Assembly: GCF_001186125.1 (NCBI RefSeq)
Contig: NW_014039895.1
Span: 3,545-52,089, forward strand
Direction of reading: 5' to 3'
From: Sphaeroforma arctica JP610
Taxonomy: Eukaryota
DNA length: 48,545 nucleotides
Shown here one piece after another: positions 19,777 through 22,700 of this stretch (its first letter is position 1; each line of letters opens with the position of its first letter). The position numbers were made by a program, and so were the translations under genes. The notes beneath the pieces are model-generated. The model saw nothing but the letters and a program-made list of their open reading frames with translations. It made no database searches and was not told the origin of the DNA.

Positions 19777-22700
19777 TTACAGTGGGACGAGAGAGTCTCT
19801 GTGTGCACGTTGTAGAAAACTACGGGACCTACCCCTCGTCTTGCTCTTGGCTGCGGCTAGCTCCTTCTCGCACAATGCCTTGAGAACATCGTAGTTGGGG
19901 TCCACTATATCGTCCATATCCGTCTGGTGCAAATGGTGTGTTGCGTATTCGTGCAGAAACCGCACAGCGGCTCTGGCATCCTTGCGGTCGTGGAAGGTCG
20001 TGTACGCCTTCTCAAACCGTTCGCAGCGTAACACCTGAGCACTCGTCGCTGTGTCATTGTGTGCGACCAATTCGTACAACCGACACGTGCGCTTCTGCAA
20101 GCCCGGCATCACTACATCGTCCACAGGACGGGCCACGAAATCGTCTTTGACTAAGGAGTACGTGACATCGCTGATAAGCACATCCGTGCCATACTTCTTA
20201 TTGTCCGCCTCCAACCGCGAGGCAAAGTCCACGTTATTGCCAAGCGCTGTGTAGTTTAAGCGCGTCACACTGCCACAGTTCCCCACAATGGCTTCGCCCG
20301 TGTGGATACCTATTCGCTGGTGAAGAGCCGGATACCCCTGCAACGCCCACTCCTCTCTGAGCAGACTCAGCCGTGCTTGGCACAGTAAGGCCGACTCGCA
20401 GGCTCTGTGTGCGTGGTCCACTACTATCTCTGGTGCGTTCCACATGGCCACTATACTATCGCCGATGTACTTGTCCACCGTGCCTTTGTTCTCGTGCACG
20501 ATCTCAGACATGCACTGTAGATAGTCGCCCAGGACAGTGTTGAGCTCATCGATATCCAGGCTCTCACTAATCGTCGTGAAGTTGACTATATCTGTGCAGA
20601 ACGATGTGATCAGCTTGTTCTGGCCTCCTAACGTTGCTTCCAGCCCGGACTGTACCAGTAGACGTACAACATCCGGGGGTACATACTTGCTGAATGACCG
20701 CATACTCGTGCGTATTATACCCATCACCTCGTATATCCGTGCAATCTCCTTCACTGGCGAAATCGAACCGTCGGATTCCACCGCCTGCGAGAAGTCCAAC
20801 CGGGCAAACTTGGACAGGTTCTTGGTACACTCGACCAGACGCCTCGACACCATGTGCGCAACAATAGCGGCTGCTATGAGTGATAAAACGAGAATCGCTA
20901 CCGCAGCAGCCACAGTTATATGCAGAATATGCTGAAACTCGTCTTGATAGTCGTCGGCGGGAACGACCACGGCTAAAACCAGGTTTCCGCCGACAAACGA
21001 GAAAAATCCGATCGCGAGTATGTCGCCATTGTTCATGATGTGCACACTGGGGGTTTGAGAATCGCTCTTTGCAAGGGCCATAGATGCATTCTGGAACCCT
21101 AACGGAACACTCTCGCACACTACACAAGCATCCGTTGCTGGATATCCACACTGTACATCATCTGGTACAACAGGATTCTTATTATCACAGCCAGCGGTGG
21201 CAGGCAATTCCGGTCGCACATCCACGTAGCACTCGCCAGTATCCAGACAGAGCTGGGAGAGAAAGTCACTCATTACGTCCAAGAGTTCGTTGCCCGAGTC
21301 GTACAGCCTGACCCGTTCCAGCACAGTCTGTCCGGGAGTAGTGCAGTTCATGATGCGCTGCAGTGAGCCCCCAGCGGCCTGTGTGCGGTTGGTCGTGGCC
21401 AGGAGGTTCCCTTGTGAGGACTCGAACATAACCGCATACCCCGTCTTGAAGTAGTCCTGACTATCCAATATACGAGACATCTGAAACAGTGTCAAATCCG
21501 ATCCTACAATGGCAACCATCGGCTGGCTCAGATCCTGGGGCACGCGGAATGCCAGCGTTGCACCCAACAACGAACCACCTATAAACGTATACACGGGTGA
21601 CCATTGGGGCCCCGTATCGTTCGCTACTATCTTGAACCACGGCCGATCAACAATGTCAAACGCCGCCTCGGGCCGGGCGTCTGTGAGGTTGTACACGGTG
21701 CAACCGGCCACAGTTTCTTCCGCCACACAGGTGTTGTTGATGCCGTAATTGGCAGCGGTGGGGGCCACATTGGTGTCTTGAATGAGCAGACGAATACTGT
21801 TGGCGTGATTGAAATCATCCCCGTTTCCGTCCAGATAGGGCATGTACACCTTGTTATCTAGGTACGCAATAAATATCCCTGACGGACTGGTGTAGTTCAT
21901 GTCCATTGTCCCGTTGAACGACTTGTACATGTACGAAGTGATGAGTGTAGAACTATTAGACGACTGTATGGAGGGGATAAGAAAGTATCCTGCCGTCAAT
22001 ACGGTTTGCAACTCAGGTAAGAGAAACTCTCGACTCAAACCCACGTCCAAGCCCAGCCAGATCTGTTTTGTGAGTATCATCACCGCAGAGGTCATCTCGC
22101 TGAGTGTTACGTTGTACACTAACGCTGTCGTCACACACACCACTACCAGCAACTCGAGGCCTGATATTGACATCAGAGCCGTGCGAATGGATATAAACTT
22201 TCTATGAAGATTCTTGAACACGGTCTGATCGTCCATATCTGTGTCGAGCAGTACTCTGCGCCCGCCCTTGGGGTTGGTTCGTTTCAGCGCTTTGTACAGC
22301 CCCTCCCTATGCAGCGGTGACACGGGCACCAGAGGAAACCAGCCTTCCTGTGCCGTGAGATTGCGCATGGGGATGGCTATCTCACCCAACGCCACGGGGC
22401 CTTGCATGACCACCACCACCAGCTTAGACACGTCTCCGAGCAACCTATCCAGGTAGTCTCCGTGTGACGCGGCTTTATCCAGGCCGCTCGCGGTCGACTC
22501 CGCTATACTCCCTACTGCAGCCCTGCTCGCACCATCCAGGCTGGTACTGGCACTCGCTGGACGCCGCCATCGCGAGGCGCCGGACATCGTTGACGCACTC
22601 AAGGACCGGCCATCCACACTTTCCGAGCCCTGTAACTCTCCCCTCTTTTTACTATTATTTGCACACTGATCTTTCTGCAGCTGTGTCCATCCAGTGTTCA

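What the first reader, a model, noticed from the sequence alone, without database searches (positions are those of the whole stretch)
19777..22200. Bacterial-style dCache-HAMP-class IIIb adenylate cyclase in a eukaryote, with an amino-acid-binding motif
Seen: TM, extracellular domain, TM, HAMP and cyclase in one intronless ORF, next to intron-rich genes. The sensor contains F-xxxx-R-P-W (21660-21637), Y 16 residues after the W, and D 31 residues after that Y. Established: dCache_1 amino-acid sensors share Y-x4-R-x-W...Y...D, and Cache-HAMP-IIIb cyclase receptors are typical of bacteria, not of animal 12-TM or fungal Cyr1 cyclases. Inference: a one-component receptor coupling amino-acid sensing to cAMP without G proteins, possibly of horizontal origin. 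The first motif position is F rather than Y, so the ligand may differ.
Basis: partly seen in the sequence, partly recalled or inferred. Interest (0 to 1): 0.72.

Follow-up and report, generated by a model that had tools for sequence, protein, structure and literature searches.

The report
Holozoan amino-acid receptor adenylate cyclase
A single-celled relative of animals carries a transcribed gene for a bacterial-design membrane receptor that likely senses amino acids outside the cell and is predicted to feed a built-in cAMP-making domain without G proteins; it belongs to an old gene family shared by several unicellular animal relatives, not to a recent transfer.

Summary
The gene is larger than reported: one intronless, transcribed ORF of 1698 aa (19777-24873, minus strand), most likely from the ichthyosporean Sphaeroforma. 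The ectodomain folds as a double Cache (Z 17.6 to PctA). It meets the published amino-acid motif, in which Phe at the first position is an allowed variant, and Arg, Trp, Tyr and Asp are invariant in 13 of 13 holozoan homologues.

Recent transfer is refuted. Homologues from Filasterea, Dermocystida and Ichthyophonida form one clade (support 99), so the gene predates their split. Cache-HAMP cyclases in eukaryotes are already in print (Naegleria, Euglena), and a Sphaerothecum homologue sits in the supplement of the motif paper.

Three points were not found in print:
(1) a VWA-free holozoan family, an exception to that paper's statement on eukaryotes;
(2) a likely N-terminal C2 domain split by long disordered inserts;
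(3) loss of the transition-state Asn (to Asp) in this paralogue's subclade, so it may be weak alone and need a partner.

Ligand binding and enzyme activity are untested. Verdict: new variant of a known kind.

The parts
19777..24873 (-). Complete intronless ORF, 1698 aa receptor-type class III cyclase
   Evidence: exact protein on record in NCBI, UniRef and EukProt; RNA-like contigs without joints
24721..24840 (-). Conserved block 1 (res 12-51), likely first two strands of a split C2 domain
   Evidence: 45% identity over 40 aa to Creolimax CFRG0460, E 3e-7; strand assignment by eye
23896..24003 (-). Conserved block 2 (res about 291-326), likely C2 strands 3-4
   Evidence: aligned to Creolimax homologues; weak, assignment inferred
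22699..22734 (-). Conserved block 3 (res about 714-725), likely C2 strand 5
   Evidence: start of blastp matches to two Creolimax proteins; assignment inferred
22318..22458 (-). Conserved block 4 (res 806-852), likely last three C2 strands; no acidic calcium loop evident
   Evidence: hhalign to C2-bearing homologues, prob 73.8, E 2.9e-5; profile 6.3 bits against at most 3.3 in 108 non-holozoan controls
22117..22173 (-). Transmembrane helix 1 (res 901-919)
   Evidence: hydropathy; model helix
20935..22101 (-). Extracellular double-Cache domain (res about 925-1313), no VWA insertion; 9 Cys and 10 N-glycosylation sequons in res 921-1315
   Evidence: VIA Z 17.6, rmsd 3.0, 236 aligned to PctA; family profile hits PctA at E 1.1e-12; counts
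21700..21729 (-). Cys1049/Cys1058 pair just before the pocket, invariant in 13 of 13 holozoan members; likely disulfide
21496..21660 (-). Amino-acid motif: Phe1072, Arg1077, Trp1079, Phe1080, Tyr1095, Asp1126
   Evidence: in register with PctA
21052..21360 (-). Cys-rich insert in the membrane-proximal module (res about 1172-1274), partly low confidence in the model
20857..20913 (-). Transmembrane helix 2 (res 1321-1339)
20686..20847 (-). HAMP-like helix-linker-helix
   Evidence: no Pfam HAMP hit; aligned with HAMP-annotated bacterial homologues, 20.2 bits
20647..20694 (-). Conserved short helix before the cyclase, likely the cyclase transducer element (name recalled, from no call)
   Evidence: conserved in alignment; model helix
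20053..20631 (-). Class III cyclase domain: Asp1428, Lys1468, Asp1472, Thr1542 and Arg1553 kept; transition-state Asn replaced by Asp1549 (20227-20229)
   Evidence: Pfam E 1.8e-15; Z 27.6 to CyaB; residues
19834..20043 (-). C-terminal three-helix tail, equivalent to the weak TPR-like tail of bacterial homologues
   Evidence: model; weak TPR hits in P0039 and P0041

Best explanation
The gene encodes a two-pass membrane protein whose outer double-Cache domain likely binds an amino acid and is predicted to control, through a HAMP-like helix pair, an inner class IIIb adenylate cyclase domain without a G protein. Shown: ORF, transcription, fold, motif, cyclase residues, and membership of a clade shared by Filasterea and both ichthyosporean orders. 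Inferred from PctA-type receptors: Arg and Trp hold the ligand's carboxyl, Tyr and Asp its amino group, and the change passes down TM2 and the HAMP-like helices to the cyclase dimer. Inferred from Lys/Thr: ATP, not GTP, is the substrate. Inferred: the cytosolic N-terminus holds a calcium-independent C2 domain, split by three disordered inserts, that would tether or localise the receptor. The module is of bacterial design, entered no later than the common ancestor of Filasterea and Ichthyosporea, and was then duplicated. This paralogue lacks the transition-state Asn, so its output may be low unless it pairs with a canonical paralogue.
For: Model pLDDT 84; residues 41-429 of the model match dCache structures at Z 14-19, PctA Z 17.6. 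All 5 PDB hits of the ectodomain alone were chemoreceptor sensor domains, led by PctA, with motif residues in register; the 14-sequence eukaryote profile hits PctA at E 1.1e-12. The published motif definition is met. Only 15 of 390 ectodomain positions are kept in at least 12 of 13 holozoan members, and four are the pocket Arg, Trp, Tyr and Asp; the full motif is in 13 of 13 holozoan against 46 of 108 other hits. A bacterial cyclase with this sensor was shown to bind amino acids (PMC8915833). Holozoan clade support 99 in all five trees. Of 16 listed codon changes in the cyclase part of two related organisms, 13 are synonymous (the listing held 40 of 195 rows).
Against: No binding or activity data. 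The window protein itself does not hit Pfam dCache_1 or HAMP. The top fold matches include amine sensors (PctD Z 19.4, McpX 18.7), so the fold does not name the ligand. Pocket geometry could not be measured, as no model coordinates were available. Asn is replaced by Asp in the catalytic site, a change seen in 0 of 238 non-holozoan hits. The C2 is not detected by Pfam in the window protein, was only partly folded in the Amoebidium homologue, and no C2 structure was listed in that fold search.
Confidence: 0.7

Rival explanations
1. This paralogue is a half-site subunit: it senses ligand and supplies the two metal-binding Asp, but makes cAMP efficiently only as a heterodimer with a canonical paralogue such as SARC_04445 or SARC_02612, much as the two halves of mammalian cyclases share the work. 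It is a refinement of the main reading rather than an exclusive alternative.
For: Asp at the Asn position in 4 of 4 members of the window's subclade, two of which also lose the Arg (Lys, Gln); a sister paralogue has Tyr for Arg; the Ichthyophonus protein lacks the first metal Asp; canonical paralogues exist in Sphaeroforma arctica. The Asn-Arg pair is cited as essential in mammalian enzymes (PMC4215837).
Against: Ma1120 is active with Ala at this position (PMC4215837). The window protein keeps the Lys, Thr and Arg that a homodimer needs. The neighbouring Asp is changed to Asn at the same time, which may be a compensated local rearrangement.
Confidence: 0.3
2. The sensor binds something other than a standard amino acid (an amine, purine or modified amino acid), and the motif is only the shared dCache_1 scaffold.
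For: Amine sensors score as high as PctA by fold; several positions are shared between amine and amino-acid motifs; the family has an extra Cys pair and invariant Thr near the pocket.
Against: The Arg and first aromatic, which are not conserved in amine sensors, are kept. The Asp that is Gly in the purine sensor McpH is invariant. Sequence hits are led by PctA, PctB and relatives.
Confidence: 0.12
3. The family was not acquired at the base of Holozoa but is part of an older, broadly inherited eukaryotic Cache-HAMP-cyclase family (Naegleria, Euglena, aphelids) that was lost in many lineages.
For: A 'pan-eukaryotic' TM-HAMP-Cache cyclase subfamily is described (PMC6366073); atlas clusters rich in Heterolobosea score 0.97-0.99; an aphelid protein and several unnamed eukaryote-like proteins share a 99-supported group with the holozoan clade.
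Against: That group also holds a Deltaproteobacteria-labelled cluster and is unresolved at its base. The aphelid pair lacks the motif and was sister to Holozoa only in trees with fewer relatives (90-98). No named Naegleria or Euglena sequence was available for the trees.
Confidence: 0.35
4. The ORF is a recent bacterial insertion or an assembly contaminant.
For: Intronless, with bacterial proteins as the bulk of the hits.
Against: Single contigs in three runs join it to exons of the spliced WD40 neighbour; it has 76% cyclase identity to Creolimax and the clade follows the organism groups; GC at third positions (0.62-0.67) is like that of the nearby GTPase ORF (0.60), itself a 917-codon open frame.
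Confidence: 0.01

Closest known systems
Bacterial dCache_1AA receptors (PctA; the dCache_1AA adenylate cyclase titrated in Gumerov et al. 2022, PMC8915833)
   Same: Double-Cache fold, the full motif with prokaryote-like spacing, TM-sensor-TM-HAMP-cyclase order, Lys/Thr class IIIb cyclase.
   Different: Eukaryotic host; added Cys pair, Cys-rich insert and glycosylation sequons; 890-residue cytosolic N-terminus with a likely split C2; Asp for the catalytic Asn.
Eukaryotic Cache-HAMP class III cyclases of Naegleria (PMC4822843) and the Euglena 'pan-eukaryotic' subfamily (PMC6366073)
   Same: Same overall receptor-cyclase architecture in a eukaryote.
   Different: No ligand motif, C2 domain or holozoan clade is described in the passages read; common origin was not tested here.
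Sphaerothecum destruens Sdes_comp20790 (two rows in Dataset S3 of PMC8915833)
   Same: Member of the same clade, listed there with the full motif.
   Different: Listed without architecture; the main text states that eukaryotic dCache_1 proteins carry a VWA insertion, which this family lacks. It keeps the canonical Asn and has a more compact C2.
alpha2delta and CACHD1 (animal dCache_1AA proteins)
   Same: Same pocket motif.
   Different: They have a VWA insertion, nested dCache domains and no cyclase; a separate lineage of proteins.
Pseudomonas CyaB and Spirulina CyaC (class IIIb, class label recalled)
   Same: Best sequence and structure matches of the catalytic domain (E 4e-30; Z 27.6).
   Different: They have other regulatory inputs; the window protein lacks the transition-state Asn.

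Membership tests
dCache_1AA amino-acid sensor | Double-Cache fold between two TM helices | tested here: met
   Model residues 41-429 match PctA at Z 17.6, rmsd 3.0, 236 of 240 residues
dCache_1AA amino-acid sensor | First motif part: aromatic or Leu, four residues, Arg/Lys, one residue, Trp, aromatic | tested here: met
   Phe1072, Arg1077, Trp1079, Phe1080; definition read in the supplement
dCache_1AA amino-acid sensor | Second part: Tyr/Phe after 13-17 residues, Asp after a further 27-34 | tested here: met
   14 and 30 residues between; aligned with PctA Tyr and Asp
dCache_1AA amino-acid sensor | Detected by the Pfam dCache_1 profile | tested here: inconclusive
   No hit for the window protein (MCP-like_PDC_1 E 0.007 only); 5 of 13 holozoan members hit at E under 1e-5, below the curated cut-off
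dCache_1AA amino-acid sensor | Motif side chains line the distal pocket in three dimensions | tested here: inconclusive
dCache_1AA amino-acid sensor | Binds amino acids | not testable with these tools
   Needs thermal shift or ITC
alpha2delta/CACHD1-type eukaryotic dCache_1AA | VWA insertion in a dCache_1 domain | tested here: not met
   Motif halves are 14 residues apart, not 215-245; no VWA in Pfam or model
dCache_1AM amine sensor | Loss of the carboxyl-binding Arg and first aromatic | tested here: not met
   Arg kept in 13 of 13; distinction read; the full amine motif was in a figure and not seen
dCache_1PU purine sensor | No Asp at the PctA D173 position; separate purine motif | tested here: not met
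   Asp kept in 13 of 13; distinction read
Class III nucleotidyl cyclase (IIIb, ATP) | Cyclase homology fold | tested here: met
   Pfam E 1.8e-15; Z 27.6, rmsd 1.8 to CyaB
Class III nucleotidyl cyclase (IIIb, ATP) | Two metal-binding Asp; Lys plus Thr/Ser for adenine (criterion recalled) | tested here: met
   Asp1428, Asp1472, Lys1468, Thr1542
Canonical self-sufficient class III active site | Transition-state Asn and Arg | tested here: not met
   Arg1553 kept, Asn replaced by Asp1549; Asn in 237 of 238 non-holozoan hits
HAMP domain | Two amphipathic helices with a connector after TM2 | tested here: inconclusive
   No Pfam hit; aligned with HAMP-annotated homologues, 20.2 bits, helix-linker-helix in the model
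C2 domain | Eight-strand beta-sandwich sequence profile | tested here: inconclusive
   No Pfam hit in the window protein; Pfam C2 in 3 of 5 N-terminal stretches of shorter homologues, best E 2e-5; atlas hits for the Creolimax orthologue are mostly C2-clan but only 0.81-0.84; linked to the window for the last block only

The most novel reading that the evidence does not exclude
The single-celled ancestor shared by animals, filastereans and ichthyosporeans had a G-protein-independent amino-acid receptor cyclase of bacterial origin, refitted with a eukaryotic C2 domain. Ichthyosporeans expanded it into paralogues with complementary half-sites that act as sensing heterodimers, while the line to choanoflagellates and animals lost it.
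Probability: 0.3. Interest if true: 0.75.

Novelty: new variant of a known kind. Interest (0 to 1): 0.52.

Why it matters
It names a testable nutrient-sensing route to cAMP in the closest unicellular relatives of animals, in organisms (Creolimax, Sphaeroforma, Capsaspora) that are cultured in the laboratory. It is an exception to the published view that eukaryotic dCache_1 proteins all carry a VWA insertion, which points to a second entry of this sensor into eukaryotes or a retained simple form. If the degenerate paralogues work as heterodimers, they would parallel the asymmetry of animal cyclases in an independent lineage.

Tried and rejected
No whole genome is held for this window, so paralogue counts rest on protein collections. 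The first protein search, with default words, missed the family (24 hits, none holozoan). Scans of genome contigs (1 locus) and metagenome contigs (80 loci kept of 590) were not analysed further and were not used in the trees. A three-sequence profile of the last C2 block found nothing in the PDB; the five-sequence profile found only the phospholipase C delta-1 C2 region at E 1.7. A long-gap pairwise threading recovered the N-terminal blocks against Creolimax (z 5-17) but not against Dermocystida (z 0-1.2). A C2 in Capsaspora looks plausible by eye but scored 0.3 bits, within controls: not claimed. A hand-anchored table of C2 blocks across homologues was not made. The careful bootstrap tree did not finish and the AU test returned no answer. 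No RNA holder was on record; RNA status of X17-X20 is a guess, backed for X17 by spliced contigs. One run (X16) shows a stop codon and a one-base loss in single low-depth contigs, treated as probable error. Literature: searches found no paper on this family; one search failed; the Creolimax genome paper and its three held supplements do not list these genes. Earlier scan notes held nothing on this sequence.

Full report
The gene. The exact protein is on record in NCBI, UniRef and EukProt. Its closest relatives are Creolimax proteins (80% over the cyclase region), and named Sphaeroforma arctica paralogues have the same set of sources; I infer that the window is from Sphaeroforma, an ichthyosporean. 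It is not a contaminant: single contigs of three runs span 16713-23435, joining it to an exon of the WD40 neighbour. An RNA-like run splices that neighbour at four GT..AG joints and covers 19652-22045 without a gap. Runs of two related organisms cover pieces from 19688 to 25134 with no joint. Being intronless says little here: a GTPase ORF of 917 codons lies nearby and has similar third-position GC.

The sensor. The ectodomain alone finds 5 PDB sequences, all chemoreceptor sensor domains, led by PctA, with Arg, Trp, Tyr and Asp in register. A profile of 14 eukaryotic sequences finds PctA at E 1.1e-12. The AlphaFold2 model (95 sequences, mean pLDDT 84) matches double-Cache structures over residues 41-429: PctD Z 19.4, PscC 18.8, McpX 18.7, PctA 17.6. 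The fold therefore does not name the ligand; the motif does. The definition in the supplement of Gumerov et al. 2022 allows Phe at the first position, and the spacings of 14 and 30 residues are within range. Amine sensors do not conserve the Arg and the purine sensor has Gly at the Asp position; both residues are kept here. Of 390 ectodomain positions, 15 are kept in at least 12 of 13 holozoan members, among them the four pocket residues and a Cys pair; the motif is in 13 of 13 holozoan and 46 of 108 other hits, and also in Capsaspora and one unnamed relative. The window protein itself does not hit Pfam dCache_1; 5 of 13 members do at E under 1e-5.

The cyclase. The domain matches CyaB best (E 4e-30; Z 27.6). 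Both metal Asp, the Lys/Thr pair and the Arg are present, which by recalled class III rules points to ATP. The transition-state Asn is Asp, with the Asp three residues earlier changed to Asn. All 4 members of the window's subclade share the Asp; 237 of 238 non-holozoan hits have Asn. Other paralogues lack the Arg or the first metal Asp. This suggests half-site subunits, but Ma1120 is active with Ala at this position (PMC4215837), so loss of activity is not shown. Of 16 listed codon changes in the cyclase part of two relatives, 13 are synonymous, against 6 of 13 in residues 1220-1370; the tool listed 40 of 195 rows, so this is indicative only. The segment after TM2 has no Pfam HAMP hit but aligns with HAMP-annotated bacterial homologues.

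The N-terminus. About 890 low-complexity residues hold four blocks conserved in Creolimax. Homologues with shorter N-termini hit Pfam C2 (3 of 5 stretches, best E 2e-5). The Creolimax orthologue's region gives mostly C2-clan atlas hits at 0.81-0.84, a lead only. The last block of the window protein links to those homologues by hhalign (prob 73.8) and by profile (6.3 bits, controls at most 3.3 in 108). The Amoebidium model folds five strands there, two to three of them at pLDDT about 70-78. A C2 domain split by inserts of roughly 240, 390 and 85 residues is likely but not proven; the strand assignments of the first three blocks are by eye.

Origin. The 12 best hits of the cyclase search were all holozoan; names were confirmed for Sphaerothecum, Amoebidium, Pigoraptor, Sphaeroforma, Creolimax and Capsaspora, while Chromosphaera and Ichthyophonus are read from recalled id prefixes. 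The holozoan sequences form one clade at support 99 in five trees (SH-type support, no bootstrap; bacterial rows thinned to 52 of 108 and 166 of 238, and smaller subsets). In one search it splits into Filasterea (99), Dermocystida (97) and Ichthyophonida (97). The gene therefore predates these groups, and recent transfer is refuted. The wider 99-supported group also holds an aphelid protein, unnamed eukaryote-like proteins and a Deltaproteobacteria-labelled cluster, unresolved at the base. Ancient transfer into Holozoa and older eukaryotic inheritance both remain open. No choanoflagellate or animal protein was among the named hits, but most hits are unnamed, so loss in animals is untested.

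What is in print. Upadhyay et al. 2016 note a Cache-bearing bacterial-type cyclase in Naegleria (passages). Ebenezer et al. 2019 describe a pan-eukaryotic TM-HAMP-Cache cyclase subfamily (passages). Gumerov et al. 2022 (parts 1-4 of 5 of the main text; first part and searches of Dataset S3; searches of the SI text) list the Sphaerothecum homologue with the motif but state that eukaryotic dCache_1 proteins carry VWA; Sphaeroforma, Creolimax, Pigoraptor, Chromosphaera and Amoebidium are absent from that dataset and the Capsaspora row is empty. The amine, purine, Ma1120, Creolimax and GPCR papers were seen as passages only; supplements of the bioRxiv amine paper were not seen. Searches found no description of this family, in a library that lacks most subscription papers.

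Verdict. A real, conserved receptor cyclase whose architecture and motif are each known. The holozoan VWA-free family, its likely split C2 and its degenerate paralogues are the new part. New variant of a known kind; interest 0.52.

Noticed in passing
window 7367-10120 (-): A 917-codon open frame with a circularly permuted GTPase (MMR_HSR1, RsgA and YqeH-like hits), probably of the NOA1/YqeH type (label recalled); a long uninterrupted frame like the cyclase gene.
   Followed up: no
window about 13600-18500 (+): Spliced WD40 gene, with four GT..AG joints in run X17; it reads like the splicing factor CDC40/Prp17 (label recalled).
   Followed up: partly
window 216-587 and 3281-4045 (+): Exons of a MutS-family gene (MutS_IV, MutS_V).
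   Followed up: no
window 31607-34616 (+) and 38298-38831 (-): Pieces of an LTR retrotransposon: reverse transcriptase, RNase H, integrase in separate frames, and an aspartyl protease on the other strand.
   Followed up: no
window about 28200-30000: Very high-copy repeat; summed contig depth is thousands of times the single-copy level.
   Followed up: no
window 23406-23495 (-): A duplicated stretch of about 20 codons in the cyclase gene's N-terminal insert, where contigs break.
   Followed up: no
window 27385-28294: A 910-base contig at depth 124 in RNA-like run X17 over a 121-codon frame with no Pfam hit.
   Followed up: no
proteins P0027/P0029 and P0030/P0034/P0037: Family members carry consecutive gene numbers in Creolimax (0459, 0460) and in the Nk52 set (38, 39, 40), suggesting tandem arrays; the window holds only one copy.
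   Followed up: partly
proteins P0075 and P0179: An aphelid (Amoeboaphelidium) protein and an unnamed relative have the same receptor-cyclase layout but lack the amino-acid motif.
   Followed up: partly
window 20467 and 22740, run X16: A stop codon and a one-base loss in single contigs of depth 8-12; probably error, possibly a mutant line.
   Followed up: no
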